A stretch of 64,000 nt of DNA from Parcubacteria group bacterium Gr01-1014_31 (GTDB lineage: Bacteria > Patescibacteriota > Patescibacteriia > Buchananbacterales > GWA2-38-13). Position 1 is the stretch's first letter. Every line of letters starts with the position of its first letter. The notes beneath the pieces were generated by a model. It searched no databases, was not told where the DNA came from, and was given only the letters and a program-made list of their open reading frames with translations. Position numbers and translations under genes: made by a program. The stretch covers positions 11,660-75,659 of the forward strand of contig VMFR01000003.1 in NCBI GenBank assembly GCA_007376135.1, given 5' to 3'. Shown piece by piece: positions 2,168-62,275 of the stretch.

Positions 2168-3355
2168 ATGCCAAAAATTTCCACCGACCCGAAGCTGATC
2201 GCCGAAGTGTTAGAGCGCGGCGTACAGAACATCTATCCTAGCAAAGAGGCGTTCGGACAGGCGCTCGCGTCCGGCCGGCGGCTCACCATCTACAACGGCA
2301 TCGACCCGACGGGGCAGTTGCACCTCGGGCATGGCGTGGTGCTCTTGAAGTTGCGGCAGCTGCAGCAACTGGGCCACCGCGTCATCGTGTTATTTGGCGG
2401 GTTCACGGCGCAGATCGGCGACCCCACCGATAAACTGGCAACGAGGCAGCCCTTGAGCGCAGCGCAGATCAAGGCGAACGCCAAAAACTACAAAAAACTC
2501 ATCGGAAAGATCTTGGACCCGAAAGCCACGGTGTGGAAAGATAACGCGACCTGGTGGGACAAGATCACCGCCGCAAAATTCCTGGAATTGGCATCGGAGC
2601 TGTCGGCCGCCCGCATCTGGGAACGCGACATGTTCCAGGAGCGCCTCAAGCAGGGCAAAGAGGTGCACCTGCACGAATTGCTCTACCCTTTGCTGCAGGG
2701 GTACGATTCGGTGGCCATGGACGTGGACGCCGAGGTCGGCGGCAACGACCAGACCGTCAACATGCTGGTGGGGCGCGAGATGCTCAAACGCCGTGGCAAG
2801 GAAAAGTTTGTCCTGACGTGCAAGCTGCTGGTGGACCCGACGGGCAAGAAGATGGGGAAGACCGAGGGCAACTTTGTCGCCATGGACGACAGCCCCCAGC
2901 AAACCTACGGCAAGGTGATGTCGTGGCCGGACTCGGTCGTACCGTTGGCATTCGAACTGGCAACCGTCGTGCCCTTGCCGGAAGTGGTGCAGGTCAGGAA
3001 TGACCTGGCCGCCGGGAAGAACCCAAAGATTTTAAAAATGCTTTTGAGCTACAAGATCACCGAGCTGTACCACGGCACGCCAGCGGCGATTTCCGCCGAA
3101 GAGCATTTCAAACAGGTCTTTGAGCGGGGCGAAAAGCCAACCGACATTCCCGAGGTGCGGACGGTCGAACGCGCGCTGCTCGAGGTGCTGGTCGCCTGCA
3201 AGCTCGCCGCTTCCCGGACCGACGCGCGTCGGTTGATTCAGCAGGGCGGCGTCAAGGTCAACGGGGTGACGGTCAAGGATGAACGGTTTGAGGTTCCCGA
3301 TGCCGCGGTCATTCAGAAAGGCAAACGGTTTTTCGTCGGTATCAAACGCGCGTGA
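2168..3355 (+). CDS. tyrS: Tyrosyl-tRNA synthetase
   Basis: HLGH (HIGH) and KMGKT (KMSKS) motifs, C-terminal S4-like domain; starts 14 nt after the valS stop. Confidence 0.9.
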   Translation: MPKISTDPKLIAEVLERGVQNIYPSKEAFGQALASGRRLTIYNGIDPTGQLHLGHGVVLLKLRQLQQLGHRVIVLFGGFTAQIGDPTDKLATRQPLSAAQIKANAKNYKKLIGKILDPKATVWKDNATWWDKITAAKFLELASELSAARIWERDMFQERLKQGKEVHLHELLYPLLQGYDSVAMDVDAEVGGNDQTVNMLVGREMLKRRGKEKFVLTCKLLVDPTGKKMGKTEGNFVAMDDSPQQTYGKVMSWPDSVVPLAFELATVVPLPEVVQVRNDLAAGKNPKILKMLLSYKITELYHGTPAAISAEEHFKQVFERGEKPTDIPEVRTVERALLEVLVACKLAASRTDARRLIQQGGVKVNGVTVKDERFEVPDAAVIQKGKRFFVGIKRA

Positions 3356-3374
3356 AGAGCGGCGCAGTACTGCC

Positions 3375-4823
3375 ATGGCGTTGACGGCCCGGCGGGCAAT
3401 GGTGGGCGGTCGCGGGGCGGCCGCAGTGGTGTTGGCAGGCTCTCTGCTGCTTTCGCTGCTTACGTACTGGCAGCACGACGGTTCCTCGGATGCCGGGACG
3501 ACCTTGACGACGGCCTGGCAGATGAGCCAGGGCAAAGTGCTGTACCGCGATATCGTGGATTTTTACCCGCCCGTGGCGTTCACGCTGCTGGCGGGCGTTT
3601 TTAAAATTGTTGGCCCCAGCTATCTGGCCGCCAAGGCGCTGTTCCTGGGGTTGCTGATCATTTGCGGACTCGCGGTGCAGCGCGCCACGCGAGACTTTTT
3701 ACCCCCCGCATGGCGGTACGCCGTGCTGCCACTGTGGCTGGTATTTTTCGCGTTCTACACGCTCATCAACCACAACCCCCTCAGTTTGTGGCTTGCGGCG
3801 CTGGCCTGGGTGAGCTGGAGCACGGCGCAGCGCTCATCCTCCCGCGGATTTTCGTTCTTGGCCGGGCTGTTGGCGGGAGCGGCCAGCGGCACATTGCAGA
3901 CGAAAGGATTGGCGGTGCTGGTGGCAGCCGCACTCGTCGTTGCCATCCATCAGTGTAAGGTTTGGCGGCTCTTGTTATGGTTGGGTGGAGGTTTTGTTAC
4001 CGTGCTGTTCCTGTTATTTACCATCTGGCCGCCGGCACTTTTGTGGGAGTTGCTGGTCGCCGTTCCCGCCAATTCCTACGCTGTACCGCCGGGCCGTTTG
4101 GAGTATGGCTTGTTGGTGTTGGCGGCCGCGGTGCAGTTGGTTGCCGGCTGGCAGCTCTTGCGGCAGCGCGCTCCGATCGTGGTCTGGGGATGGTGGTGGC
4201 TGGGAGCGGCCCTGCTTGCCAGCACCGCGGTGCGCACCGACGCGCATCACGTCGTGATGAATTCGTTCCCGTTGCTGCTGGTTTCCCTGTGGATCGCGTC
4301 GCAGCGGCGGTGGGAGAGAACGCACGGCCTATCCCAAGTGGTGGATCGGTTGTTAACAACCTTGGTCGCGGCGTATCCGTTGACGCTCATGTTGCTCGTC
4401 GTCGTGGCGCTGCCGTCCGGATTCCCGACCGCCCAGGATCGGACGTTTTGGGAGTGGCTCGCGCTGCGAAACCGGGGGATCGAGCAAATCGTGTTCGCGG
4501 TACAGACCCGCGTACCGCCCGGCAAGCCCATCTACGCCGGGCCGTTCTTGGCCAATGCGTACTTTGAAACGCAACGCGAAAATCCCACCCGTTTCAACAA
4601 TCTCATCACCGGCCTGTACCCGTCCGCGTATTTTCAGGAGGCACGCGCCAGCCTGGAGGAAGATACGCCGGCGGTGGTGTTGCTTAATTACCCGCTGGTC
4701 GCCAAATACCAGCACCAGATGAACAATCCTGTCGATGCGTTCTTCTGGTCGCGCTATCGCGTGACGGCGCAATTCGGCGACACGGTGCTGTTGGAATTGC
4801 AGCAGCCGTCAGGCAGCCCGTAG
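3375..4823 (+). CDS. Polytopic GT-C fold glycosyltransferase paralog 1 (PMT_2/GT39-83-like; DE motif replaced by DA)
   Basis: Many predicted TM helices. 'FYPPVAF..FG.S...AK' block aligns to the PMT_2 signature of paralog 6. C-terminal soluble domain with the 'QRENPTRFN' motif. Start chosen at the first ATG after the tyrS stop; it is uncertain. Confidence 0.6.
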   Translation: MALTARRAMVGGRGAAAVVLAGSLLLSLLTYWQHDGSSDAGTTLTTAWQMSQGKVLYRDIVDFYPPVAFTLLAGVFKIVGPSYLAAKALFLGLLIICGLAVQRATRDFLPPAWRYAVLPLWLVFFAFYTLINHNPLSLWLAALAWVSWSTAQRSSSRGFSFLAGLLAGAASGTLQTKGLAVLVAAALVVAIHQCKVWRLLLWLGGGFVTVLFLLFTIWPPALLWELLVAVPANSYAVPPGRLEYGLLVLAAAVQLVAGWQLLRQRAPIVVWGWWWLGAALLASTAVRTDAHHVVMNSFPLLLVSLWIASQRRWERTHGLSQVVDRLLTTLVAAYPLTLMLLVVVALPSGFPTAQDRTFWEWLALRNRGIEQIVFAVQTRVPPGKPIYAGPFLANAYFETQRENPTRFNNLITGLYPSAYFQEARASLEEDTPAVVLLNYPLVAKYQHQMNNPVDAFFWSRYRVTAQFGDTVLLELQQPSGSP

Positions 4824-4827
4824 AGCT

Positions 4828-6252
4828 ATGCCGCACACCATTCTGCGCCAGCGGTGGGTCGTCTGGGGACTCTTGGCAGCCGGGTTTGCCACAGTGGCAG
4901 GCTACCACGCCGTACTTCCCATTGATGTTGATGAAACCTGGGTGCTGACGGTCGGCTGGCAGATCACCCAGGGCGTGGACCCGCTCCGCGATCTGTATGA
5001 ATTTCATACGCCCGGCGCATTCTACCTGGCCGCCGCGATCATCAAAATGTTCGGCGCCAGCGTTTGGCCGTTGCGGCTCGTGGTGACGCTGTTGACCGCG
5101 GCAACGGCCTGGCCGCTGTGGCGCCTGGCGCAACTATTGGGATTGCGGGGTTGGCAGCCGCCGGCGGTGGTGGCGACGTGGATTTTGCTGCTCACTATGT
5201 TCCCGTGGATCAACCCCAACCACCTGGCCCAGCTGGGTGGTATCTGGGCGGCGTGGGCGCTGGTCTTTGCCTGGCAGAAGCGGCGGCTGCGCTGGTTTGT
5301 TCTGGCGGGCGCGATTGCCGGGCTTGCCGTGTGGCTGTTGCAGACCCGCGGAGGCGCCCTGGTGTTGGCGGGCGTGGTAATTGCCCTCACGGCCCGTCGG
5401 CTTTGGCCGTTGGTGGCATACCTTGCCGGGGTCGGGGTGGTTTGGCTGCCATTCCTGTTGTGGCCGCCCGCGCTGCTCTGGCATAGTCTGGTCACGCTGC
5501 CGACGACCCAGTACCTGCCGTCCCAGTTCGTCGGCGTGCAGCTGGTGGTCATTACGGTCGGATTCCTCACTGTTCTCGCGCTGCTGGCATTGGCCGTGCA
5601 TGCCGCGCCGTCCGGATTTTGGCCGCTCTGGGCAGTCGCGCTTGTTCTGGCGGCAAGCATCTGGTCGCGCGCCGAAATTGCCTACTGGTCAACGATCGCC
5701 TGGCCGCTGTCGGTGCTGTTTTTTTCGCTGCTGTCGTGCCCCTGGCCCCGGCTGTCTGGCCGTCCACGGCAGACGGTGCGTGCCGTCATGTGGTACGGCG
5801 GCGCGCTGCTCGCGGCGCAGGTGTTTGGTTGGGCGGCGATCAACGGCGCGTCGCGCGTCGCGATGGCCATTTCCGACCGGCGCGCAGGGCGCGGCGACCT
5901 GTGGCAGGGGATCGGGGCAGCGGTAACGGCGCGGACGTTGCCGGGGGAGGAGATTTTTGCCCTGCCGTATCTGCCGGGGGCATATTTTTTCAGCCAGCGG
6001 CCGAACGCCACGCCGTACAATACGCTGCTGTCCAATTTTCACCCGCCCGAAATCCTCGCGGACGCGATTTCGCGGCTGGAGCGGGTCAAGCCGAAAGTGG
6101 TGGTGCGGGCACGCGACAGTTTCGCCGTTCGGCGAGGTTTTCATCAGGACGGCACCGCGCTGGACGCGTACCTGGATGACCATTACCGCGTGGCGCAAGA
6201 CTCGGTGGCCGGGTATGTGGTGGAAATTTTGGAGCGTCGGCCTGGGTTATGA
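4828..6252 (+). CDS. GT-C fold glycosyltransferase paralog 2 (DE motif intact)
   Basis: 'DVDETWVLTVGWQ' plus 'EFHTPGAFY..FGASVWPLRLVVTLLTAAT' align with the PMT_2 motif region. C-terminal domain 'SQRPNATPYN ... DAYLDDHYRV'. Starts 5 nt after the paralog 1 stop. Confidence 0.65.
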   Translation: MPHTILRQRWVVWGLLAAGFATVAGYHAVLPIDVDETWVLTVGWQITQGVDPLRDLYEFHTPGAFYLAAAIIKMFGASVWPLRLVVTLLTAATAWPLWRLAQLLGLRGWQPPAVVATWILLLTMFPWINPNHLAQLGGIWAAWALVFAWQKRRLRWFVLAGAIAGLAVWLLQTRGGALVLAGVVIALTARRLWPLVAYLAGVGVVWLPFLLWPPALLWHSLVTLPTTQYLPSQFVGVQLVVITVGFLTVLALLALAVHAAPSGFWPLWAVALVLAASIWSRAEIAYWSTIAWPLSVLFFSLLSCPWPRLSGRPRQTVRAVMWYGGALLAAQVFGWAAINGASRVAMAISDRRAGRGDLWQGIGAAVTARTLPGEEIFALPYLPGAYFFSQRPNATPYNTLLSNFHPPEILADAISRLERVKPKVVVRARDSFAVRRGFHQDGTALDAYLDDHYRVAQDSVAGYVVEILERRPGL

Positions 6253-7682
6253 ACGAGGAATTGCCGACATCTCGCTGGGGGCTGGGCGCCCGTGCCACGG
6301 TGGTCGCGGTGCTGGCAGCGGTTGCCTTCATCCGGTGGTACGTCGGAATCGATCCGGATGCGGGATTGACGATGACGGCCGCCTGGCAGGTGAGCCAGGG
6401 ATTGGTGCCGTACCGGGATTTTTTCGAATTCCATCCCCCCGGCGCATTTTATGCGCTGGCCGGCGTTTTTCAGATCTTTGGCTCCACCTACGTCGTCGCC
6501 AAACTGTTCTCGATGCTCGTTCTGGCCCTTGGCGCGGTGGGAGTGGATCGCTGCGCGCGGCGGCTGTTGCTGCGTCCGTGGCATCGCGTTGCCGCTTTGG
6601 CGGTGTGGGGGCTGCTGGCGCTGCAGTTTCCACTGGTGAGCTATAGTACATACGCGCACGTCGGTAGCATCTGGGTCGCGTGGCTTTTGGTGCGGCTCCA
6701 TCAGCGCAGCGCTCAAGGGTGGGAGGCGCTCGCCGGGTTTGCCGTCCTCGGAGCGAGCGCGGCGGGGGTGGGGTGGCTTTTGCAGACGCGCGGTGCGGCA
6801 TTGTTCCTGGTCGGGCTGGGTGTTGCCGCGGCGTCGCGCCGCTGGCAGCTGGTCGCAGCGTACCTGGGAGGATCGGGGGTGGCGCTGCTGCCCGGCCTCG
6901 CGCTTCCGCTGCGGGAATTTTGGCAGCAAACGGTCGTCTATCCCGCTGCCCACTACCCGGCCATCAACACCGACCAGCCATTGTGGCTGGTGCTCTGGGG
7001 TGGCGTCATCGTGACGCTGGGCATAGTCGCATACTGGGCGCGATCCTCGTGGCGCGGATTTTGGCCGTTGTGGTGGACGGCCCTCGCGCTCTTGGTCAGC
7101 ATCTGGCCGCACGCGAACGGGGTGTACCTCTCGATGGTGCTGTGGCCCTTGGCGCTGTTGTTCACCGCCGCGGTGCCGCCGCCGTCGGCCATGGCGTGGC
7201 GACGGCTCTGGCAGGGGGTAGCTGCGGCATCCGGAGCTTTTGCCGGCGCGCTGGCCTTGATGACCGTCGGCGTTTTTTTTACCCTGTTCCCCGGCGCGCG
7301 CGCCGCCGACCCCTGGGGCGCGCGGGCGCCCTTCTGGGAGGATCTGGCCGTTGAGGTGCGGATGCGGACGCAGCAGAACGAACCCATCTTTGCCACGCCC
7401 ACGCTACCCAATCTTTATTTTTTCGCGCAGCGTCCGAATGCCACGCGGTATAATTCCCTGTTCAGCGGTCAGTACGACGCTCCGTATTTCTTGCAAGCGG
7501 TCGTCGATCTGGAGCAGCGCCGTCCTCGATACGTCGTGCGCGAGCTGGACAGCTTGGCGGTGCAACTGGGTTACCACCGTGACGGCACCCAGGTGGATGT
7601 GTATCTGGATGAGCACTACCGCGTGGCCGCCGAGCTGACGAAGTTTCTGCCGCGGCGGTTGCAGCTCTTGGAGCGGCGATAG
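6249..7682 (+). CDS. GT-C fold glycosyltransferase paralog 3 (DA variant)
   Basis: ATGA start/stop overlap with paralog 2. 'DPDAGLTMTAAWQVSQG...EFHPPGAFY'. C-terminal 'AQRPNATRYN ... DVYLDEHYRV'. Confidence 0.65.
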   Translation: MNEELPTSRWGLGARATVVAVLAAVAFIRWYVGIDPDAGLTMTAAWQVSQGLVPYRDFFEFHPPGAFYALAGVFQIFGSTYVVAKLFSMLVLALGAVGVDRCARRLLLRPWHRVAALAVWGLLALQFPLVSYSTYAHVGSIWVAWLLVRLHQRSAQGWEALAGFAVLGASAAGVGWLLQTRGAALFLVGLGVAAASRRWQLVAAYLGGSGVALLPGLALPLREFWQQTVVYPAAHYPAINTDQPLWLVLWGGVIVTLGIVAYWARSSWRGFWPLWWTALALLVSIWPHANGVYLSMVLWPLALLFTAAVPPPSAMAWRRLWQGVAAASGAFAGALALMTVGVFFTLFPGARAADPWGARAPFWEDLAVEVRMRTQQNEPIFATPTLPNLYFFAQRPNATRYNSLFSGQYDAPYFLQAVVDLEQRRPRYVVRELDSLAVQLGYHRDGTQVDVYLDEHYRVAAELTKFLPRRLQLLERR

Positions 7683-7689
7683 CATCCGT

Positions 7690-9114
7690 ATGACGTGGTA
7701 CCCCCTCCCTCGTTCCCGCTGGACGCCTCCCGCGATTGCGGGGCTTGTGTTGGCGCTGCTGGTGGTGCGCTGGTATCCGGACCCCGCCAGCGACGAAACA
7801 TTGACGCTGACCATCGCCTGGCAGGTCAGCCAGGGGCTTGGGCTCTACCGCGATGTCTTTGAATTCCATCCGCCCGGTACGTTCTATTTCTTTGGCGCGC
7901 TGTTCCGGGTGTTCGGCCCGTCGTATCTGGCGGCGAAGATCGCGATCGTACTCCTGACCGCGGCAACCGGTTTTGCCCTCGATGTGCTAGTTCGCCGCTT
8001 CACCTCCCGCGGACTACCGCGGGTCACCGTGCTGGCGGGGTGGCTGCTGTTGGTCTGGCAATTTCCGGCGATCGGCTACCATTCCTTGGCGCACCTGGCC
8101 AGCATTTGGGTTGCGCTCTTTTTGGTTCTGGCGTCCGTTGAGCGGCGTACCGGCTGGGCTTTGGCCTGCGGTCTCGCGACGGCCGCTGCGGGCTGGTATA
8201 TGCAACCCTACGGCGTGGTCCTGGCGGCGGTGGGCGTTGGCAGCATGCTCGCGACGCGGCAGCTGCGGCTGGCGTTCGCTTACGTTGCCGCGCTCGCGAT
8301 CGCGCTGCTGCCGTTGCTGGCCTGGCCTTTGCCGCTGCTGTGGCAGCATCTGGTGCGATTCCCGCTGACGTACTACGCGCCCGCGAACCTTTCCCAAGGC
8401 AGTCCGGCAGGGTTGTTCGTCCTGGTCGCGGTGGTTCTCATGGTCGGCGCTGCGGCTGTCTTCAGTCGGCGGGTGCCATCCGGGTTTTGGCCGTTATGGT
8501 TCATGTCGCTGGTCCTGCCGCTCACCGTGTGGCCGCACTCGCAGGTCGGCTACCTGGCGAGTGTTGCCTGGCCGTTGCTTTTGCTGCTCGTGGTAACACC
8601 GCCGGGTGGGGGAGCGATGCGGGAGCAGATCTCGGCCATCGTCGGGCAAAGCCTTCGGTTTGTGGCCGTGGTCGGCGGCATCGCAGCGGCAGTCGTTTCG
8701 GTCGGATTTTTTTCCGTGCGTTGGCCGCTCCATGACGAGTTCGGTCTGCGCGTGCCGTTCTGGGACGACCTTGGAACTGCGGTGCAGGCCCGCACGAGGA
8801 CGAATGAACCGATCTTTGCCGTGCCGTACTTGCCGGCGATATATTTTTTTGCCCAGCGGCCCAATGCCACCCGGCACAACTCGCTGCAGACCGCGTTCCA
8901 TCCGCCGTACGTCTTGGATGAGATCATCACCGATCTGGAGCGCACCAAGCCGCGGGTGGTCATCCGCGAGTATGCCAGCTGGCTCGCGCGATTGGGGCAG
9001 TACGACGAGGGCAACCGCGTTGACGCCTACCTGGATATGCACTATCGGTTCAGTGAGGAGCTGACGCAGTTTGCCCCGCGGCGGATCCAGCTGTGGGAAC
9101 GACGCGTTCCGTAG
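7690..9114 (+). CDS. GT-C fold glycosyltransferase paralog 4 (DE intact)
   Basis: 'ASDETLTLTIAWQVSQG...EFHPPGTFYFF'. C-terminal 'AQRPNATRHN ... DAYLDMHYRF'. Confidence 0.65.
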   Translation: MTWYPLPRSRWTPPAIAGLVLALLVVRWYPDPASDETLTLTIAWQVSQGLGLYRDVFEFHPPGTFYFFGALFRVFGPSYLAAKIAIVLLTAATGFALDVLVRRFTSRGLPRVTVLAGWLLLVWQFPAIGYHSLAHLASIWVALFLVLASVERRTGWALACGLATAAAGWYMQPYGVVLAAVGVGSMLATRQLRLAFAYVAALAIALLPLLAWPLPLLWQHLVRFPLTYYAPANLSQGSPAGLFVLVAVVLMVGAAAVFSRRVPSGFWPLWFMSLVLPLTVWPHSQVGYLASVAWPLLLLLVVTPPGGGAMREQISAIVGQSLRFVAVVGGIAAAVVSVGFFSVRWPLHDEFGLRVPFWDDLGTAVQARTRTNEPIFAVPYLPAIYFFAQRPNATRHNSLQTAFHPPYVLDEIITDLERTKPRVVIREYASWLARLGQYDEGNRVDAYLDMHYRFSEELTQFAPRRIQLWERRVP

Positions 9115-9118
9115 TCGT

Positions 9119-9234
9119 CTATGCCCCGTAGGACAACGGAATGGCGGGGAAAATAGATATTAGACGGGGGAGAAGCTATTATGTACGCCATCACATGAGC
9201 ATTACACATTTGACCGTTGTCCTGCGGGGTAGGC
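9119..9234 (+). repeat. Start-codon-enclosing inverted-repeat element, copy A (between GT-C paralogs 4 and 5; degenerate distal ATG)
   Basis: Inverted repeats ctatgccccgtaggacaacgg and ccgttgtcctgcggggtaggc (ATG changed to AGG); begins 5 nt after the paralog 4 stop. Confidence 0.7.
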
Positions 9235-10628
9235 TGCAAGACCTTCCCCGTATCGTTGCCTCGCGGTGGTGGCCGTTCGTCTACTGGCCGGCATTGTTGC
9301 TCCTCGCGATTTTTTTGAAATGGGGCCACCTGGTCAACCAGGATGAGGGGTTAACGCTGGCCGGTGCGTGGCAGGTTAGCCTTGGGTTGCAGCCATATCG
9401 TGATTTTTACGATTTCATCACGCCGGGCTCTCATTATCTTTTGGCGGGCGTCTTTCGCATGTTCGGTTCGACGTACGTCGTGGCGAAGGTCTTTTCATTG
9501 TTCCTCCTTCTGCTCTCCCTATACGGCGTGCGACGGATCACGGTGCGGTTCGCCTCCGGACCATGGTCGTGGTGGCCGTCGCTGCTGTGGCTCTTGCTGT
9601 CCGATCACTATGTGCTGATCAATCACAACACGTACGCGCTGGTGGCGGCGGTCTGGGCGATCGAGCGCGCGTTGGCGGCAGCCGGCAAGACCGCGGCGCG
9701 ATGGCCGTCCTGGCTGGTCGCGGGGTTGCTGGCCGGCGCGACCGTGATGCTGCACCAGGCGCGGGGAGCAGCCGTGGTCGCGGCCGTGCTGTGGCTCGCG
9801 CTGACCTTCGGGGTTGTCCCGGCTCTTGCCGTCATCGGGGGAGTGGCACTTGCGCTCCTGCCGCTGTTGGCATGGCCGTTGCCGCTCCTGCTGCAATCAT
9901 TGGTTGCCTTTCCTTTCGTCCAATATCTCCCGTTCAACCGGACCGGGATGACGCTGTTGGGCGCTTTGGTCGGCGTATATCTCGGGGTGGTGTTGCTTTC
10001 CCCATCACGCTGGCGAGACCGCCGCTGGGTATTTCTCTGGGGCAGCGGGGTTTTGCTGTTGGCGAGTAACTTCAGCCAAGCCGACCGTTTTCACCTGCTG
10101 CCGGCGATGTTTCCCATCGGCGCGCTGATCGCAACGGTCGCCATCCAGCGGCGTTCGCGCTGGCCGGCGTTGATGGCCGCTTCCGGCACGGCGGTATTGG
10201 CGGTAATCTCCATCGGCTTTACGGCACACCGCATTGCCAGCGTCGGCGTCAGGCCGTTCCTTCAGCTGCGCGACCCCCAGCTGGAGCAGCTGGTTTCCCG
10301 CATACAGCAAACCGTCGCGCCCCAGCAGCCGATCTTCGCCGCTCCGTTCCTGCCCAATCTTTATTTTGAAACTCAGCGCCGTAATCCGACGCGGTTCAAC
10401 GTGCTGATCTATCGGCACCATCCTTCGGCGTTCTTTGCGGCAGCGCGTGCCAGCCTGGAAGCCGACCCACCGCCCGTCATTCTCCTGAACTACTACACGA
10501 CGCCCGAAGGGTTTGCGACATTCCTGCTGGGCAACCCGGTCACTGACTATATCCGCCAGTACTACCGATACGCGGAAACCGTGAATAACATCCAGATCTA
10601 CCGCCGCACGGTCCCTCCGACACTATGA
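9141..10628 (+). CDS. GT-C fold glycosyltransferase paralog 5 (DE intact; start uncertain because it lies inside the repeat element)
   Basis: 'NQDEGLTLAGAWQVSLG...DFITPGSHY'. C-terminal 'TQRRNPTRFN'. The first in-frame ATGs (9141, 9195) lie inside the 9119-9234 inverted-repeat element, whose distal repeat has lost the ATG. Confidence 0.6.
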   Translation: MAGKIDIRRGRSYYVRHHMSITHLTVVLRGRLQDLPRIVASRWWPFVYWPALLLLAIFLKWGHLVNQDEGLTLAGAWQVSLGLQPYRDFYDFITPGSHYLLAGVFRMFGSTYVVAKVFSLFLLLLSLYGVRRITVRFASGPWSWWPSLLWLLLSDHYVLINHNTYALVAAVWAIERALAAAGKTAARWPSWLVAGLLAGATVMLHQARGAAVVAAVLWLALTFGVVPALAVIGGVALALLPLLAWPLPLLLQSLVAFPFVQYLPFNRTGMTLLGALVGVYLGVVLLSPSRWRDRRWVFLWGSGVLLLASNFSQADRFHLLPAMFPIGALIATVAIQRRSRWPALMAASGTAVLAVISIGFTAHRIASVGVRPFLQLRDPQLEQLVSRIQQTVAPQQPIFAAPFLPNLYFETQRRNPTRFNVLIYRHHPSAFFAAARASLEADPPPVILLNYYTTPEGFATFLLGNPVTDYIRQYYRYAETVNNIQIYRRTVPPTL

Positions 10629-12073
10629 AATTTCATTGGGCCAAAATGTTTTTGCGGTCACCGTGGATTTGGGCAGTGTTTGGGTTGACGGTTTTCGGCA
10701 TGGCGCTGCGATGGCTGGGATTGGGACGCGAGTCGCTGTGGATGGACGAGCTGCAGACTTTGCGCGCCGCTCTTCTGCCGTGGGGGGAGCTGGTCATGGA
10801 ACGCCTGTCGGCCGGCCACGCGCCGCTATATTTCCTCTTGATGAAGCCGTGGATAGCTGTCTTTGGTGCGTCGGAAACGGCGCTGCGGTTGCCGTCGTTG
10901 CTGTTGGGAACAGCGACCATCCCGCTGACCTATCTGTTGGGCCGGCAGGCAGTCTCCCGCACGGTCGGTCTGTTCGCGGCATGCGGGATAACAGTCTCGG
11001 CCATCAACATCGAGTACGCGCAGGAGGCACGGCCATATACGCTGCTCACGCTGTTGGTGTTGCTCTCCGCCCTGGGGGCGGTGAAGTTGCATTCCTCGTT
11101 GGGTCGGCAAGGCTGGGGGTTGGCGTGCGTTGGGTTGATCGCCGGCATCTACACGCATTCCTATTTTCTCTTCTTTGCATTGGTCATCGTGGGCTGGCTG
11201 CTGTGGTCGAGTCGGGGGACGGCGGCCGTGGGACGGGTCTGGTCGCTCGCGCTCACGGTCGGCATGGCCGCGCTGCCGTGGGTCGCTGCCGTCACTTGGC
11301 AGCAGCTGCGCCCGCAGCCGGGCAATCCGGTCTTCTTCCTTTCCCAGCAGCAGTGGACCCTCTGGGACGCCGCCGTCAATTTCTTGGTCCGGACGCGGGC
11401 GGCCACCTACTGGCCCGAACCGTCGTATCTGGCGGTCTTTCCAACCGCTCTGCTGTTGGGTGTGGCGATCCTTCCGGTCGTACGGTGGGTTCGCCGGGGC
11501 GTTACGGATCAGAAGACCCCGATCGTCCTGCTCTACGGTTTGGTAGTCATCCCGGTGCTTTTGCCGTGGCTCTGGTCGCAGGCAGGTACGAATATCTTCG
11601 GCATCCATTATCTGCTGCCGGTGACGCCGGCATTGTATGCGGTGGTTGCCGTCGGCGCGGTCAGCACATGGGAAATGCTGCCGTGGCGCCAAAGGCCGAT
11701 CGTTCTGGCGATCGCCGTTGCGGCGTTCATCCCGCTACAGTCCGGGAGTTTGGCGGTCGCGTACCTCGTGCACCATAAGCCGCCGTGGCGCGAGGTGGAC
11801 GGTTATCTCCGGCGTAACGTCGGTGGGGAAGACGCGGTCGTGCTCATCGGCCCGGCCGCCGAGGCAACTCCGGTACTGGCGCACTACGCGCGCGGAGCCT
11901 ATGCGGTGCAGCCTGCGCCGACCGCCGATGTCCGCGAGGCCGCGCGGCTCTGGATGATCGGCTATGGACCCCAGGCGATGGCGCGCTCCCTTCAGTCCCT
12001 GGCGACGGTTTTGCAACCGTTCGCAACCGTGCGGATAGATCGCATCGGCATCATCGGGCTGGAGCGCCGTTGA
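10625..12073 (+). CDS. Glycosyltransferase family 39/83-like (PMT_2, ArnT/PMT-type) membrane protein
   Basis: Canonical PMT_2 N-terminal signature 'SLWMDELQTLRAAL...HAPLYFLLMKPWIAVFGASETALRLPSLLLGTATIPLTYLLGRQ'. ATGA overlap with paralog 5. Lacks the C-terminal domain shared by paralogs 1-5. Confidence 0.75.
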   Translation: MKFHWAKMFLRSPWIWAVFGLTVFGMALRWLGLGRESLWMDELQTLRAALLPWGELVMERLSAGHAPLYFLLMKPWIAVFGASETALRLPSLLLGTATIPLTYLLGRQAVSRTVGLFAACGITVSAINIEYAQEARPYTLLTLLVLLSALGAVKLHSSLGRQGWGLACVGLIAGIYTHSYFLFFALVIVGWLLWSSRGTAAVGRVWSLALTVGMAALPWVAAVTWQQLRPQPGNPVFFLSQQQWTLWDAAVNFLVRTRAATYWPEPSYLAVFPTALLLGVAILPVVRWVRRGVTDQKTPIVLLYGLVVIPVLLPWLWSQAGTNIFGIHYLLPVTPALYAVVAVGAVSTWEMLPWRQRPIVLAIAVAAFIPLQSGSLAVAYLVHHKPPWREVDGYLRRNVGGEDAVVLIGPAAEATPVLAHYARGAYAVQPAPTADVREAARLWMIGYGPQAMARSLQSLATVLQPFATVRIDRIGIIGLERR

Positions 12074-12129
12074 ATCCAGTTTGACGGTTCCTCGTGCCGG
12101 GATTAGACTACACTCTTTAGCACCGTGAT

Positions 12130-12825
12130 ATGGCCACTTCTCGCACTGTTGCCGGAAATCATCTCGCTATCCTGGAGGAGATCCTCGAGACGATCTCGCG
12201 GACGTTAGAATTGAAAGACATTCTGCAGCAGGTCGTGCACATCGTCGCGCGGGTTACCCGTGCCGATTCCTGCCTGCTGTATCTCATTTCGGGCCGTGAG
12301 GTCGTACTCCAGGCGTCACTGAAAACGCACCCGCACTTGTCCAAGATCCGCATGAAGGTGGGTGAGGGCATTACCGGCTGGGTCGCGGAGGAGAAAAAGC
12401 TGGTGGCCATCGCCCGCGCCGCTTACCAGGATCCGCGGTTCAAGCTGTTCAATGCCCTGCCCGAAGACCGTTTTGAGGCGTTCCTGTCGGTGCCGATCAT
12501 CCATCGCGGCACGGTCATCGGTGTGATCAACGTGCAGCACCGCCGGCCCCGCCGCTATCCAAAAACCACCGTGCGACTGTTGGAGACCGTCGGCAAGCAG
12601 ATCGGCGGGCTGCTCGAAGTCGTACGGCTCGTATCGGAAACCCAGGCGCTCAAGGAGGCGTTGGAGACGCGCAAGCTGATCGCCCGCGCCAAAGCCGTGC
12701 TGATGAAGCAGCACCATTTGGACGAGGCGGCCGTTCACCAATTGTTGCTGAAAAAAAGCATGGACAAGCGTAAGTCGCTGCGCGAAGTGGCCGAGGCCGT
12801 GATTTTAGCAAGTGAGATATCGTGA
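12130..12825 (+). CDS. GAF domain plus ANTAR RNA-binding antiterminator regulator
   Basis: N-terminal GAF-like fold. C-terminal ANTAR consensus 'RKLIARAKAVLMKQHHLDEAAVHQLLLKKSMDKRKSLREVAEAVI'. Confidence 0.8.
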   Translation: MATSRTVAGNHLAILEEILETISRTLELKDILQQVVHIVARVTRADSCLLYLISGREVVLQASLKTHPHLSKIRMKVGEGITGWVAEEKKLVAIARAAYQDPRFKLFNALPEDRFEAFLSVPIIHRGTVIGVINVQHRRPRRYPKTTVRLLETVGKQIGGLLEVVRLVSETQALKEALETRKLIARAKAVLMKQHHLDEAAVHQLLLKKSMDKRKSLREVAEAVILASEIS

Positions 12826-12974
12826 AATGATTTGACTATGGGATTGCGTATTGCGCATTGTTTAGCCGTCCGGAGAATACGTAATTCGTAATCCGCAATA
12901 AAAAATTTGTAATTTATTTCTGGAGGTTATCCACTTGTCCGCCGCTCCATCGGGGCGTAGGATAGGGGAGTTGG

Positions 12975-12992
12975 CGGCACAATGGCGTGCCG
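12975..12992 (+). promoter_or_regulatory. Hexaloop hairpin in glnA leader (candidate ANTAR target)
   Basis: cggcac-AATGGC-gtgccg: 6-bp stem, hexaloop with A at position 1 and G at position 4. Confidence 0.35.
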
Positions 12993-13050
12993 TTCGCCGG
13001 AGACAATGAGGTCTTCTGGGTTTATGCCCGGGAGATTTTTTGGTATTCCT

Positions 13051-14460
13051 ATGACCAAAGACGAAATATTCTCGCTGATCGACCGCGAGCAGGTCGCGAT
13101 GGTGGATTTCCGTTTCGTGGATGTGTTCGGGCGCTGGCAGCATTTCACCTCGCCGGTGTCCGAGTTGACGCCGGAGGTGTTCGTGGAGGGCGTCGGATTC
13201 GACGGTTCTTCCATCCGCGGCTTCAAGCCGATCCAGGAAAGCGATATGCTGCTGGTGCCCGATCCGGTATCGGCGTTCGTTGACCCGTTCTTCGCCGTCA
13301 AAACCCTGGTGCTTATCTGCGATGTGTATGAGCCGGGTAATGAGCTGACGCCGTTCACCTACGACCCGCGGCGCATCGCGCGTCAGGCGGAAAGTTTCTT
13401 GCGGGGAAGCGGCGTGGCAGATGTGGCGTACTTCGGCCCCGAAGCCGAGTTCTTTATTTTTGATTCCATCCGTTACCACCAGGACGCCCGCGAAGGAAGC
13501 TACGCAATTGAATCGTCGGAAGCGCCGTGGCGGAGCGGCGACGGGGGAGCGAACCTCGGCTACCGCATTCCGCATAAAGAAGGGTATTTCCCGGTGCCGC
13601 CGCACGACACGCAGCAGGACGTGCGCACCGCGATGGTCCAGCATTTGACGGCCTGCGGCGTGCCGGTGGAAAAGCATCACCATGAGGTCGCGACCGCCGG
13701 GCAGGCGGAGATCGACCTGCGCTACGGGCCGTTGGTTTCGATGGCTGATCAGATGATGATCTACAAGTACGTGGTCAAAGCAACCGCCCGTCAGCACGGC
13801 AAGGTGGCAACCTTTATGCCCAAACCGATGTTCGGCGACAACGGTTCGGGCATGCATACGCACGTGTCGCTCTGGCAGGGCGGCAAACCGTTGTTCGCCG
13901 GTAACGGCTACGCGGGATTGTCGGACCTGGCGCTGCATTTCGCCGGCGGGTTGCTGCACCACGCGGCGGCGGTGCTCGCATTCGCCGCGCCGACGACCAA
14001 CTCCTATAAACGGCTGGTCCCCGGCTACGAGGCGCCGGTCAATCTGGTCTATTCCCAGCGTAACCGGTCGGCCGCCATCCGCATCCCCGTGTACTCGCAG
14101 TCGCCCAAGGCCAAGCGTTTGGAGTTCCGTCCGCCGGACCCGTCATCCAATCCGTACCTGACGTTCGCCGCGATGCTGATGGCCGGGTTGGACGGCATCC
14201 GGCGCAAGCTCGACCCCGGCGCTCCCATCAACGAGAACATCTACGCCCTGCCGCCGGAGCGCGCGCGGCAGATCAAGTCGGTGCCCGGGTCGTTGGGCCA
14301 GTCGCTGTCGGCGTTGGCGGCCGACCACGAGTTTTTGACCGCCGGCAATGTCTTCCCCAAGGGATTCATCCAGCAGTGGATTTCCCTCAAGCGTGAAGAG
14401 ATTTCGCAGCTCAACCTGCGGCCGCATCCCTATGAATTCGTGCTCTACCACGACTGCTAA
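13051..14460 (+). CDS. glnA: Glutamine synthetase type I
   Basis: GS-I motifs ('MHTHVSLW', 'KPMFGDNGSGMHTHVS', adenylylation-region-like C-terminus). GGAGA RBS about 10 nt upstream of ATG 13051. The upstream ORF-track start at 12982 is rejected. Confidence 0.9.
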   Translation: MTKDEIFSLIDREQVAMVDFRFVDVFGRWQHFTSPVSELTPEVFVEGVGFDGSSIRGFKPIQESDMLLVPDPVSAFVDPFFAVKTLVLICDVYEPGNELTPFTYDPRRIARQAESFLRGSGVADVAYFGPEAEFFIFDSIRYHQDAREGSYAIESSEAPWRSGDGGANLGYRIPHKEGYFPVPPHDTQQDVRTAMVQHLTACGVPVEKHHHEVATAGQAEIDLRYGPLVSMADQMMIYKYVVKATARQHGKVATFMPKPMFGDNGSGMHTHVSLWQGGKPLFAGNGYAGLSDLALHFAGGLLHHAAAVLAFAAPTTNSYKRLVPGYEAPVNLVYSQRNRSAAIRIPVYSQSPKAKRLEFRPPDPSSNPYLTFAAMLMAGLDGIRRKLDPGAPINENIYALPPERARQIKSVPGSLGQSLSALAADHEFLTAGNVFPKGFIQQWISLKREEISQLNLRPHPYEFVLYHDC

Positions 14461-18639: not shown

Positions 18640-18948
18640 ATGTCCACCCTACTCCAGTTCCAAGCCGGTGAACTACCTTCGGGCCAGTGCCGCGCATATG
18701 CGACCGGCGGTATGACCGTGATGGTCTACCACCTGGCCGATACCTTCTACGCCACACAGGGGTTGTGCAGCCATGAGGACATGCCGCTCGAAGGAGGAGA
18801 GATCAAGGAGAACGTCATCCAATGCCCGTTCCATGATTCGCGGTTCAATATCCGGACCGGCAAGGTGCTGTCCGGGCCCGCCGAGCGCGGTTTGAAAATC
18901 TTTCCCGTCACCGTCGACGGTGGTACGGTAACGGTAACGTTGCCGTAA
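18640..18948 (+). CDS. Rieske [2Fe-2S] domain ferredoxin
   Basis: CxH ... CxxH boxes ('CSHEDMPLEGG', 'CPFHDSRF'). Confidence 0.8.
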   Translation: MSTLLQFQAGELPSGQCRAYATGGMTVMVYHLADTFYATQGLCSHEDMPLEGGEIKENVIQCPFHDSRFNIRTGKVLSGPAERGLKIFPVTVDGGTVTVTLP

Positions 18949-38092: not shown

Positions 38093-38208
38093 GGTCGGCC
38101 TTATCGTAGGGTGCCACGCCGACGGTGTCAAAATCGTCCTGCGTTGCGTTTTTTCGTCTTCTATGGTATGGTGGTGCACACCCCGCGGGGATTTTTTATT
38201 TACGTTCC

Positions 38209-40029
<1,821 letters not shown>

Positions 40030-60351: not shown

Positions 60352-60701
60352 GCGCATCAGGCGTACCCCTGGTGTTGGGGTGGCTCATCGAGAACGTTGG
60401 AAAATTTTGGTTCAGGGGATTGTGAGGGTAGTAGCATGTGGGGTAGTAATTGGTAGATTTAACATTAATCATTGTGGTACAATAAAAATGGTCGCGGAAT
60501 TTGTGAGTCATTTTCGGATATGCTACATAGTCATGAGATCGCAACGTGGTCCGGTTTTATTTTTGTCCCGAGTAATGTCTTTTGACCCGGGGGTATTTTT
60601 TTGCAAAAAGCGACCGTCGTTTTGAACTTTGCCCCCGCCCGGGGTTTTTGTTTTTGAGATAGGATTTAAGTTCATTGACAATCAGAACAGAAAGGTTTGT
60701 C

Positions 60702-61941: not shown

Positions 61942-62013
61942 GGTGGCTAACGGGAATCGAACCCGTGCTAAAGGCGCCACAGGCCTCTGTGCTACCTCTA
62001 CACCATAGCCACC
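61942..62013 (-). tRNA. tRNA-His (anticodon GTG) with encoded G-1
   Basis: Manual cloverleaf: acceptor GTGGCTA/TAGCCAC with extra 5' G opposite discriminator C; anticodon loop CTGTGGC; T-arm ACGGG-TTCGATT-CCCGT. Followed (minus sense) by a hairpin/T-run terminator. Confidence 0.8.
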
Positions 62014-62204: not shown

Positions 62205-62275
62205 TCCCCCCGGAGAGAATCGAACTCCCATACCCGGCTTAGAAGTCCGGCGTTCTTCCATTAAACTACGGGGGG
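62205..62275 (-). tRNA. tRNA-Arg (anticodon TCT)
   Basis: Manual cloverleaf: acceptor CCCCCCG/CGGGGGG, D-arm GTTT-AATGGAA-GAAC, anticodon loop CTTCTAA, T-arm GGGAG-TTCGATT-CTCTC, discriminator A. Confidence 0.75.

What the first reader, a model, noticed from the sequence alone, without database searches (positions are those of the whole stretch)
12130..13060. GAF-ANTAR regulator directly upstream of glnA, whose leader contains an ANTAR-type hexaloop hairpin
The 231-aa protein pairs a GAF-like sensor with a canonical ANTAR RNA-binding domain. ANTAR proteins act by binding dual hexaloop hairpins (A at loop position 1, G at position 4) in mRNA leaders to prevent terminator formation. The glnA leader, roughly 225 nt with an AT-rich promoter-like region near 12880-12915, contains cggcac-AAUGGC-gugccg at 12975-12992, which fits the hexaloop rule, and the stem can extend with a UU bulge. 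Only one clean hairpin was found by eye, so the second hairpin and terminator partner remain unidentified. This suggests glutamine synthetase expression controlled by ligand-gated RNA antitermination rather than NtrC/GlnR-type transcription factors.
Basis: partly seen in the sequence, partly recalled or inferred. Interest (0 to 1): 0.6.

Follow-up and report, generated by a model that had tools for sequence, protein, structure and literature searches.

The report
GAF-ANTAR antitermination switch on glnA
A candidate-phyla-radiation (CPR) bacterium encodes a small RNA-binding regulator next to its glutamine synthetase gene, whose leader has the full two-hairpin-plus-terminator switch such regulators act on; the mechanism is known, but this sensor type has never been characterised.

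Summary
Window 12130-12825 encodes a 231-aa GAF+ANTAR protein, and glnA starts at 13051. I found the two missing parts. P2 is ggagac-AAUGAG-gucuuc at 12999-13016. A strong intrinsic terminator lies at 13008-13041, and its 5' arm contains the P2 3' arm. This is the canonical ANTAR dual-hexaloop antiterminator.

A covariance model built only from other genomes finds this site as the sole significant hit in the window (35.1 bits, E=5e-6). P1 shows compensatory changes in 4 of 5 pairs. Of the 21 closest orthologues, mostly labelled Patescibacteria, 19 lie beside a glutamine synthetase gene and one beside amtB. Their leaders have the same architecture.

An RNA-pattern scan of metagenomes returned 120 sites. 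About half lie just downstream of a GAF-ANTAR gene, and most precede glutamate-synthase-family genes.

The GAF domain is closest to the PtsP/EI-Ntr GAF domain, which binds glutamine. That suggests glutamine or 2-oxoglutarate sensing, but this is inference only.

ANTAR control of GS/GOGAT genes is already known (NitR; Ramesh 2012). I rate this a new variant of a known kind, of moderate interest.

The parts
12081..12109 (+). Sigma-70-like promoter candidate for the GAF-ANTAR gene (TTGACG, 17-nt spacer, TAGACT). No ANTAR-target motif lies upstream of the regulator gene.
   Evidence: Consensus scan. Covariance-model searches of the window found no second site. Function is inferred.
12130..12825 (+). 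GAF-ANTAR one-component regulator, 231 aa. The GAF domain covers about residues 26-163 (nt 12205-12618). A long connecting helix spans residues 145-195. The ANTAR three-helix bundle covers residues 173-225 (nt 12646-12804).
   Evidence: Pfam. AlphaFold model with pLDDT 86. PDB sequence and fold matches. Six of the seven EutV RNA-contact residues are identical or conservatively replaced (with PMC8934654).
12927..12934 (+). Conserved TTATCCAC box directly abutting the -35 hexamer. It resembles a DnaA box. It may be a binding site for an unidentified DNA-binding factor.
   Evidence: The box is invariant in window, L001, L081, L082 and L085. It is also present at the same place in Buchananbacteria loci L003-L006 and in L021. 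The window has only 3 copies against 0.75 expected. Function unknown.
12935..12963 (+). glnA promoter candidate: -35 TTGTCC (12935-12940), 17-nt spacer, -10 TAGGAT (12958-12963). The predicted transcription start is near 12970, just before P1.
   Evidence: A TTGnnn-16/18-TAnnnT element occupies the same position, 7-12 nt upstream of P1, in nearly all related leaders. It is a phylogenetic footprint in the close relatives. No experiment.
12973..12994 (+). P1 hairpin of the ANTAR target. The core stem is 12975-12980 paired with 12987-12992, extendable by two G-U pairs. The hexaloop is AAUGGC (12981-12986), with A at position 1 and G at position 4.
   Evidence: Sequence. Folds. Covariation in relatives: 4 of 5 modelled pairs show compensatory changes and 99% of cells are paired.
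12999..13016 (+). P2 (antiterminator) hairpin, ggagac-AAUGAG-gucuuc. The hexaloop is at 13005-13010, with A at position 1 and G at position 4.
   Evidence: Fold of 12968-13018 gives P1 plus P2. Motif scan. The AGAC/GUCU stem is conserved in 24 related leaders.
13008..13041 (+). Intrinsic terminator. The stem is 13008-13021 paired with 13026-13039 (core 13012-13021 with 13026-13035), the loop is UUAU, and the U6 run is 13036-13041. Its 5' arm contains the 3' arm of P2 (13011-13016), so P2 and the terminator are mutually exclusive.
   Evidence: Terminator scan. Minimum-energy folds. The same overlap appears in the minimum-energy fold of 17 of 21 related leaders. Paired changes between the close relatives keep the stem base-paired.
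13051..14460 (+). glnA, a type I glutamine synthetase of 469 aa. This is the regulated gene.
   Evidence: Pfam Gln-synt_N and Gln-synt_C. Start position supported by alignment to homologues from residue 1.

Best explanation
This is a transcription-attenuation switch of the ANTAR type controlling glutamine synthetase.

Transcription starts at a sigma-70-like promoter (12935-12963), and the RNA begins almost directly with hairpin P1. By default the nascent leader folds into P1 plus a strong terminator (13008-13041), and RNA polymerase stops about 10 nt before the glnA start codon.

When the adjacent 231-aa GAF-ANTAR protein is in its active, presumably dimeric, state, its ANTAR domains bind the hexaloops of P1 (AAUGGC) and P2 (AAUGAG). 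Binding holds P2 closed, which withholds GUCUUC from the terminator stem, so polymerase reads through into glnA.

The GAF domain is the input. It is closest to the glutamine-binding GAF domain of PtsP/EI-Ntr. The most likely signal is therefore cellular nitrogen status, with low glutamine and/or high 2-oxoglutarate switching RNA binding on.

Shown here: the domains, the RNA anatomy, its conservation and covariation, and the synteny. Inferred: RNA binding by this particular protein, the transcriptional nature of the effect, the ligand, and the sign of the response.
For: Protein:
- GAF and full-length ANTAR domains.
- The model shows GAF, a 51-residue helix and a three-helix bundle.
- EutV RNA-contact residues R142, K143, K147, K149, E160, Y164 and M172 map to R181, K182, R186, K188, E199, H203 and M211 (PMC8934654).

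RNA:
- P1 and P2 hexaloops both have A at position 1 and G at position 4, with a 4-6 nt linker.
- The terminator overlaps P2. The 91-nt fold is -41.8 kcal/mol, z=-5.1.
- Model R2, built without the window or L001, gives 35.1 bits (E=5e-6) as the only significant hit in 128 kb searched.
- P1 covaries.
- One such motif with a T-run is observed against 0.04 expected.

Comparative:
- 19 of the 21 closest orthologues adjoin a GS gene, and L013 adjoins amtB.
- Leaders in L081, L082, L084 and L085 score 31.8-37.6 bits.
- L046 has three such leaders, in front of a sigma-like ORF, amtB-glnB and glnA.
- In 120 metagenome sites found by RNA pattern alone, 118 have a downstream T-run. 62 have a GAF-ANTAR gene directly upstream. 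78 of the 105 callable downstream ORFs belong to the glutamate-synthase family.

Sensor:
- The best PDB matches by sequence and by fold are PtsP/EI-Ntr GAF domains (3ci6, TM 0.87, rmsd 1.8 A; 3trc), with NifA also matched.
- The EI-Ntr GAF domain binds glutamine (PMC4848567).

Precedent: the ANTAR protein NitR antiterminates GS/GOGAT genes under nitrogen limitation (PMC6316151).
Against: There is no experimental evidence of any kind for this protein or this RNA.

Only 64 kb of the genome is visible. Another ANTAR protein elsewhere in the genome could be the true binder, and other regulon members cannot be counted. None is present in the window.

GAF domains bind very diverse ligands. 26% identity to the PtsP GAF domain does not fix the ligand.

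More distant orthologues (40-45% identity, Acidobacteriota, L022-L045) have no neighbouring GS gene and no model hit at E<1. The association is therefore clade-specific.

The conserved TTATCCAC box suggests a further, DNA-level input.

Loop statistics from my hand-picked hairpins are biased by the selection rule. The covariance-model results are the unbiased evidence.
Confidence: 0.8

Rival explanations
1. The leader is a genuine ANTAR target, but a different ANTAR regulator encoded elsewhere in the genome binds it. The adjacent GAF-ANTAR protein acts on other RNAs.
For: Only 64 kb of the genome is visible. ANTAR domains recognise a generic hexaloop, so cross-talk is possible (PMC8934654). Distant GAF-ANTAR orthologues are not next to GS genes.
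Against: The regulator is adjacent to the leader in 19 of the 21 closest orthologues, across several CPR classes. A GAF-ANTAR gene also lies directly upstream in 58 of 92 metagenome sites that were found from the RNA side alone and have enough upstream sequence. The window holds no second ANTAR gene.
Confidence: 0.07
2. Control is mainly translational. The hairpin at 13008-13039 hides the Shine-Dalgarno-like GGGAGA (13030-13035), and protein binding frees it, as proposed for actinobacterial ANTAR RNAs.
For: GGGAGA lies in the 3' arm of the terminator, 15 nt before the ATG. ANTAR RNAs that act on translation are described in actinobacteria (PMC8164766 abstract).
Against: The hairpin is followed by a U6 run, and almost all relatives have a U-run. 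That is the signature of intrinsic termination. In close relatives L082 and L085 the terminator lies more than 150 nt upstream of the gene start, so it cannot mask the ribosome site there. Both effects could coexist in the window.
Confidence: 0.08
3. glnA is regulated mainly at transcription initiation, by a DNA-binding factor at the conserved TTATCCAC box. The hairpins would be a constitutive attenuator, or simply the terminator of the upstream gene.
For: TTATCCAC abuts the -35 element and is invariant among the close relatives. It recurs in Buchananbacteria and in L021.
Against: The box is absent from many leaders that still keep P1, P2 and the terminator (L008, L010, L011, L014, L016-L020). 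The terminator lies downstream of the conserved promoter, not directly after the regulator gene. Conservation of the loop A1/G4 positions and covariation in P1 are not explained by a plain terminator. The two control layers are not mutually exclusive.
Confidence: 0.05

Closest known systems
EutV / eut leader RNAs of Enterococcus faecalis (the reference ANTAR antitermination system; Ramesh 2012 PMC3369931; Walshe 2022 PMC8934654)
   Same: The RNA anatomy is the same: two hexaloop hairpins with A1 and G4, a short linker, and a P2 3' arm shared with an intrinsic terminator. The ANTAR domain carries the same RNA-contact residues (R, K, K/R, K, E, aromatic, M) and follows a long coiled-coil helix.
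   Different: The input domain is a GAF domain, not a phosphorylated receiver, so no partner kinase is needed. The target is glnA, not ethanolamine-utilisation genes. The aromatic residue that stacks on G4 is His203, where EutV has Tyr164.
NitR of Clostridium saccharobutylicum, and the ANTAR RNA hits upstream of glutamine synthetase next to ANTAR response regulators in Firmicutes (Stutz 2007 via PMC6316151; Ramesh 2012 Table S2)
   Same: An ANTAR regulator is encoded beside glnA, with an ANTAR-type leader and terminator controlling GS/GOGAT genes. The regulatory logic is the same: nitrogen assimilation is turned on by antitermination.
   Different: The Table S2 neighbours are annotated as ANTAR response regulators or simply ANTAR regulatory proteins, and NitR is described only as an ANTAR-family RNA-binding protein; no GAF sensor is reported for any of them. 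This one has a GAF sensor of the PtsP type. The lineage is Patescibacteria/CPR, not Firmicutes.
NasR (NIT-ANTAR) of Klebsiella oxytoca and PAL (PAS-LOV-ANTAR), the only characterised one-component ANTAR regulators (PMC7496416)
   Same: One-component design: a ligand- or signal-sensing domain fused directly to ANTAR. Like this system, NasR controls a nitrogen-assimilation operon by leader antitermination.
   Different: The sensor fold and the signal differ: GAF here, against NIT (nitrate/nitrite) or LOV (light). No GAF-ANTAR protein has a defined ligand or target in the papers I could search.
GAF domain of PtsP / enzyme I-Ntr (PDB 3ci6, 3trc) and of NifA
   Same: These are the best sequence and fold matches to the sensor domain (E=4e-16; TM 0.87, rmsd 1.8 A). 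The D-x-C-x-(I/L)-Y-L and EG(I/L)xG motifs are shared in the alignment. The EI-Ntr GAF domain binds glutamine (PMC4848567). From my own knowledge, the NifA GAF domain binds 2-oxoglutarate.
   Different: The output is an RNA-binding ANTAR domain, not a PEP-dependent kinase or an AAA+ activator. Identity is only about 26%. Ligand binding is untested.

Membership tests
ANTAR-domain RNA-binding antiterminator proteins (Pfam PF03861) | Full-length ANTAR domain scoring above the curated threshold | tested here: met
   64.3 bits against a cutoff of 27.3. Profile positions 2-54 of 54, residues 173-225.
ANTAR-domain RNA-binding antiterminator proteins (Pfam PF03861) | Three-helix bundle preceded by a long helix that can form a dimerising coiled coil | tested here: met
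   The AlphaFold model (pLDDT 86) has helices at 145-195, 199-213 and 217-230. Dimerisation itself was not modelled.
ANTAR-domain RNA-binding antiterminator proteins (Pfam PF03861) | Conservation of the residues that contact the hexaloop in the EutV-RNA structure | tested here: met
   R181, K182, R186, K188, E199, H203 and M211 align to EutV R142, K143, K147, K149, E160, Y164 and M172 (residues from PMC8934654). The position of H203 is Tyr in some relatives.
ANTAR-domain RNA-binding antiterminator proteins (Pfam PF03861) | Demonstrated RNA binding and antitermination | not testable with these tools
   Needs gel-shift and in vitro transcription assays.
ANTAR-target RNA (dual-hexaloop antiterminator as defined by Ramesh et al. 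2012) | Two adjacent stem-loops, each with a six-nucleotide loop | tested here: met
   P1 at 12975-12992 and P2 at 12999-13016.
ANTAR-target RNA (dual-hexaloop antiterminator as defined by Ramesh et al. 2012) | A at loop position 1 and G at loop position 4 in both loops | tested here: met
   The loops are AAUGGC and AAUGAG. In 21 related leaders G4 is present in 21 of 21 for both loops, and A1 in 20 and 18 of 21 (the selection was partly biased towards these bases).
ANTAR-target RNA (dual-hexaloop antiterminator as defined by Ramesh et al. 2012) | Short, constrained linker between the hairpins | tested here: met
   The linker is 4-6 nt in the window and 1-15 nt in relatives.
ANTAR-target RNA (dual-hexaloop antiterminator as defined by Ramesh et al. 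2012) | The P2 3' arm is shared with an intrinsic terminator immediately downstream | tested here: met
   Terminator at 13008-13041. All 6 nucleotides of the P2 3' arm pair downstream in the minimum-energy fold. The same holds in 17 of 21 relatives.
ANTAR-target RNA (dual-hexaloop antiterminator as defined by Ramesh et al. 2012) | Match to a covariance model of the family | tested here: met
   No Rfam family matched, so no public model could be applied. My own model R2, built from 24 leaders of other genomes, scores 35.1 bits with E=5e-6.
PtsP/EI-Ntr-type GAF sensor (glutamine / 2-oxoglutarate sensing) | GAF fold closest to the PtsP GAF domain by sequence and by structure | tested here: met
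   phmmer against 3ci6 gives 4.4e-16 and against 3trc 3.8e-13. Foldseek against 3ci6 gives TM 0.87 and rmsd 1.8 A.
PtsP/EI-Ntr-type GAF sensor (glutamine / 2-oxoglutarate sensing) | Binds glutamine or 2-oxoglutarate | not testable with these tools
   Inference from homology only. GAF ligands are diverse.
Receiver-domain ANTAR regulators of glnA annotated in Firmicutes (ANTAR-containing response regulators, Ramesh 2012 Table S2) | N-terminal receiver (REC) or pseudo-receiver domain | tested here: not met
   The N-terminal domain is GAF. There is no Response_reg hit. The system works like these regulators but is not a member.
Known glnA-associated RNA elements in Rfam (for example the glutamine riboswitch) | Match to the Rfam covariance model | tested here: not met
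   There were no relevant hits, even at E<=10, in 11500-14000. The only matches in the whole window at gathering threshold were two tRNAs.

The most novel reading that the evidence does not exclude
GAF-ANTAR proteins would be a widespread but uncharacterised class of one-component nitrogen sensors. Their PtsP-like GAF domain would bind glutamine or 2-oxoglutarate directly and gate RNA binding. On this reading they are the principal regulators of GS/GOGAT and ammonium-uptake genes in Patescibacteria (CPR) and several other uncultured lineages. This would be the first defined ligand, target RNA and regulon for any GAF-ANTAR protein, and a rare regulatory circuit worked out for CPR bacteria.
Probability: 0.35. 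Interest if true: 0.6.

Novelty: new variant of a known kind. Interest (0 to 1): 0.45.

Why it matters
The output mechanism, ANTAR antitermination at nitrogen genes, is textbook for this family, so the window holds no new principle.

What is new is the pairing. An uncharacterised sensor class (GAF-ANTAR) is now linked to a clearly defined target RNA and a coherent gene set (glnA, amtB-glnB, and glutamate-synthase-family genes). The pairing is conserved across several CPR classes and is abundant in metagenomes.

This gives a compact, testable system of a 231-aa protein and a roughly 70-nt RNA. It could be used to find out what a GAF-ANTAR protein senses and how CPR bacteria, which cannot be grown alone, perceive nitrogen status. 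It could also yield a small ligand-gated RNA switch for synthetic biology.

Tried and rejected
- **Rfam.** I searched the region at E<=10 and the whole window at gathering threshold. Nothing relevant matched.
Rejected. It is absent in L001, and a conserved promoter lies at 12935-12963.
- **Other dual-hexaloop candidates in the window (4201-4248, 18905-18946, 60653-60700).** Rejected. None has a T-run, all lie inside ORFs or in weak AT-rich sequence, and the covariance model gives E>2 or no hit.
- **First alignment, including L007 and L009.** These Paceibacterota leaders have an extra hairpin and misaligned, so I dropped them from the seed. They still score weakly with the model.
- **Acidobacteriota orthologues at 40-45% identity.** They have no adjacent GS gene and no model hit. 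A few have amtB-PII 1.5-2 kb downstream. I did not pursue this.
- **Literature search 'ANTAR' + 'Patescibacteria'.** The prefix matched 'Antarctic' and the search was wasted. The whole-word repeat found nothing relevant.
- **Mapping the C. crescentus EI-Ntr L83Q glutamine-blind mutation onto this GAF domain.** Not possible without that sequence.
Full report
**What is in the window**

The ORF 12130-12825(+) encodes a 231-aa protein. It has an N-terminal GAF domain (Pfam GAF, E=1.3e-19) and a complete C-terminal ANTAR domain (E=8.5e-18, profile positions 2-54 of 54).

The next gene is a type I glutamine synthetase (Gln-synt_N and Gln-synt_C). Its real start is ATG 13051. Homologues align from residue 1 at that position, and the orthologue in L081 is called at 469 aa. 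The longer ORF from 12982 listed runs through the regulatory hairpins and is probably spurious.

**The missing parts are present**

Six nucleotides after P1 lies a second hairpin, ggagac-AAUGAG-gucuuc (12999-13016). Its hexaloop also has A at position 1 and G at position 4.

A consensus scan finds an intrinsic terminator at 13008-13039, followed by a U-run.
- Folding 12960-13050 gives P1 plus a 14-bp terminator hairpin at -41.8 kcal/mol. The z-score is -5.1, and none of 200 shuffles folds as well.
- Folding only 12968-13018, the RNA that exists before the terminator's 3' arm is made, gives P1 plus P2.

The 3' arm of P2 (13011-13016) lies inside the terminator's 5' arm, so the two structures exclude each other. 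This is the architecture defined for ANTAR substrates by Ramesh et al. 2012 (PMC3369931) and refined by the EutV-RNA structure (PMC8934654).

**Is it more than chance?**

A simple scan looked for two A..G.. hexaloop hairpins followed by a T5 run. It finds one site in the window on either strand, which is this one. The expectation from dinucleotide shuffles is 0.04, and 8 of 200 shuffles had one.

No Rfam family matches the leader, so I built covariance models from related leaders.
- Model R2 was built from 24 leaders of other genomes, excluding the window and its 94%-identical relative.
- R2 scores 12976-13014 at 35.1 bits with E=5e-6. The next best hit in the 64-kb window (both strands) has E=1.3.
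- On that alignment, 99% of cells are paired. Four of the five P1 pairs show compensatory double changes. The covariation score is 0.505, against 0.134 for shuffles and at most 0.12 for slid registers.
- The P2 stem (AGAC/GUCU) is conserved in sequence rather than covarying.

**Conservation and synteny**

A scan of one genome per species returned 80 loci encoding relatives of the protein.

Of the 21 closest (at least 46% identity), most are labelled Patescibacteria: Buchananbacteria, Paceibacterota, Uhrbacteria and Gottesmanbacteria. A few carry other or no lineage labels, including one Anaerolineales MAG.
- 19 have a glutamine synthetase gene next door.
- In 16 of those the gene lies directly downstream, within 500 nt.
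- L013 has amtB instead.

The leaders carry the same P1-linker-P2-terminator layout. In 17 of 21, the minimum-energy fold pairs the P2 3' arm into a terminator followed by a U-run.

The GS gene downstream is of two different types. One is 55-97% identical to the window's. The other is a 441-451-aa form at only 35-38% identity. The regulator and the leader are nevertheless retained in both cases.

Closer relatives at 77-84% identity, fetched by exact-protein look-up, also carry the leader (31.8-37.6 bits). L081, from a MAG labelled Patescibacteria, is syntenic with the window over about 12 kb.

In an alignment of the five closest leaders, the invariant blocks are:
- the TTATCCAC box plus the start of the -35 element,
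- the -10 element,
- P1 and P2,
- the terminator arms.

The promoter spacer and the P1-P2 linker vary freely.

**Evidence from the RNA side**

An exact-pattern scan of metagenome contigs used the loop-proximal consensus CACAANGGCGTG-N5-22-AGACAANGNNGTCT.
- 118 have a T-run within 55 nt downstream.
- 62 have a GAF-ANTAR gene directly upstream on the same strand. That is 58 of the 92 sites with at least 900 nt of upstream sequence. These genes are about 30% identical to the window's, and the domains were confirmed for L089.
- Of the 105 sites with a callable downstream ORF, 78 are glutamate-synthase-family genes (PF01645), 7 are FlpD, 4 are GS and 16 are unassigned.

L046 carries a GAF-GAF-ANTAR gene. 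It has three such leaders: before a sigma-like ORF, before amtB-glnB and before glnA. L076 has one before a gene whose N-terminal sequence resembles a glutamine-dependent NAD synthetase; this was read by eye and not confirmed by a domain search.

The GAF-ANTAR and dual-hexaloop unit is therefore a recurrent control module for nitrogen-assimilation genes, well beyond this window.

**The protein as an RNA binder**

The AlphaFold model (pLDDT 86) shows a GAF domain, a 51-residue helix (145-195) and a three-helix bundle.

The window protein aligns to EutV without gaps over the ANTAR domain. The RNA-contacting residues R142, K143, K147, K149, E160, Y164 and M172 (PMC8934654) correspond to R181, K182, R186, K188, E199, H203 and M211. 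K182, K188, E199 and M211 are invariant in 30 family members. H203 is Tyr in some relatives.

**The sensor**

By sequence, the best solved relatives of the GAF domain are:
- 3e0y, a Geobacter GAF domain of unknown function,
- the GAF domains of PtsP/EI-Ntr (3ci6 at 4.4e-16; 3trc),
- more distantly, NifA.

By fold, 3ci6 and 3trc rank first (TM 0.87, rmsd 1.8-2.1 A).

The EI-Ntr GAF domain binds glutamine, which inhibits autophosphorylation in E. coli, S. meliloti and C. crescentus (PMC4848567). From my own knowledge, the NifA GAF domain binds 2-oxoglutarate.

This supports, but does not prove, glutamine or 2-oxoglutarate as the signal. The direction of the response, with RNA binding favoured under nitrogen limitation, is inferred from the need for GS under those conditions and from NitR (PMC6316151).

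**Promoter and extra layer**

Nearly every related leader has a TTGnnn-16/18-TAnnnT element ending 7-12 nt before P1. In the window it is TTGTCC (12935-12940) and TAGGAT (12958-12963). The attenuated transcript would then be about 70 nt.

Directly upstream of the -35 element lies TTATCCAC (12927-12934).
- It is invariant in the window's clade.
- It is also present at the same position in Buchananbacteria and in L021.
- It resembles the DnaA-box consensus and may mark a DNA-level input.
- I did not resolve this.

The regulator gene has its own promoter-like site (12081-12109) and no leader motif. That fits a constitutively made sensor.

**Organism and surroundings**

The BipA protein encoded at 38125-40029 is 100% identical to that of 'Parcubacteria group bacterium Gr01-1014_31'. 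The next named relatives are labelled Uhrbacteria, so the window comes from a CPR bacterium with 62% G+C.

The neighbouring genes are housekeeping: ValRS, six tandem GT39-like membrane proteins, suf genes, ATP synthase and pyruvate kinase. The window holds no other ANTAR gene and no amtB, glnB or glutamate-synthase homologue.

**Relation to what is known**

ANTAR antitermination at nitrogen genes is well established. Ramesh 2012 lists 25 mentions of glutamine synthetase among terminator-overlapping ANTAR RNA hits. Several lie next to ANTAR response regulators (Desulforudis, Carboxydothermus, Alkaliphilus). NitR does this in Clostridium.

The sensor is what has not been described in the papers I could search.
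- In 2012 no PAS- or GAF-ANTAR protein had been characterised.
- In 2020 only NasR and PAL had been characterised among one-component ANTAR proteins.
- A 2025 review mentions GAF only as a domain architecture.
- No paper pairs ANTAR with the candidate phyla radiation.

I therefore file the RNA as a member of the ANTAR-target class and the protein as a member of the ANTAR family. The system as a whole is a new variant, with a GAF input and a CPR lineage, of a known kind of switch.

**Verdict**

The ligand, the sign of the response and the actual RNA binding remain inferences.

Interest is moderate. The finding would not surprise a specialist. It does define a small, experimentally tractable system for an uncharacterised sensor class and for nitrogen sensing in CPR bacteria.

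Noticed in passing
window 12927-12934 (also L001 4695-4702, L081 6700-6707, L082 3968-3975, L085 3806-3813, L003-L006, L021): A conserved TTATCCAC(A/T) box, resembling the DnaA-box consensus, directly abuts the -35 hexamer of the glnA promoter. It is invariant in the window's clade and recurs in distant CPR classes. It is absent from many other leaders of the family. It could be a second, DNA-level control site.
   Followed up: partly
window 3279-12073 (+): Six tandem paralogous genes of about 475-515 aa encode multi-pass membrane proteins. Three hit the PMT_2 (GT39-like glycosyl/arabinosyl transferase) family. The same array precedes the GAF-ANTAR gene in L081.
   Followed up: no
window 38125-40029 (+): This BipA/TypA is 100% identical to the protein of 'Parcubacteria group bacterium Gr01-1014_31' on a 159.7-kb contig. 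That identifies the source genome as a high-G+C (62%) CPR bacterium.
   Followed up: yes
L003-L005, L014, L016, L018-L021 (genes downstream of the leader): The GS gene under this leader is of two different types across CPR: a 468-473-aa form like the window's, and a 441-451-aa form only 35-38% identical. The regulator and the leader RNA are retained in both cases, so the control module appears to have outlived a swap of the enzyme.
   Followed up: partly
L046 3920-8564 (Candidatus Geothermocultor MAG): A 419-aa GAF-GAF-ANTAR protein is followed by three ANTAR-type leaders on one strand. They precede a small sigma-like ORF, amtB-glnB and glnA. A glutamate-synthase GXGXG-like gene lies upstream. 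This looks like a compact nitrogen regulon.
   Followed up: partly
L086-L205 (metagenome contigs): The same loop-proximal RNA sequence is most abundant upstream of 528-553-aa glutamate-synthase-family (PF01645) genes and of FlpD/MvhD-like genes. It often lies just after a GAF-ANTAR gene about 30% identical to the window's. The host lineages are unknown.
   Followed up: partly
L048 5200-6948 and L076 5357-7135: In Nitrospirota MAGs, the gene after the GAF-GAF-ANTAR gene has an N-terminal sequence resembling a glutamine-dependent NAD synthetase; this was read by eye and not confirmed by a domain search. L076 has a weak leader hit in front of it (22.2 bits).
   Followed up: no
window 12130-12825, residues 46-52 and 79-86: The invariant motifs D-S-C-x-L-Y-L and E-G-I-T-G-W-V-A of this GAF family align with D-v-C-s-i-Y-L and E-G-L-V-G-l-V-g of the Acinetobacter PtsP GAF domain (3ci6). 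These are candidate ligand-pocket residues, including an invariant cysteine.
   Followed up: no
window 13030-13035: The only Shine-Dalgarno-like sequence before glnA (GGGAGA, 15 nt upstream of the ATG) lies in the 3' arm of the terminator. Refolding of the hairpin on read-through transcripts could therefore also damp translation. This arrangement is not conserved in L082 or L085.
   Followed up: partly
window 61942-62012 and 62205-62275 (-): These two tRNA genes are the only Rfam gathering-threshold matches in the 64-kb window.
   Followed up: no
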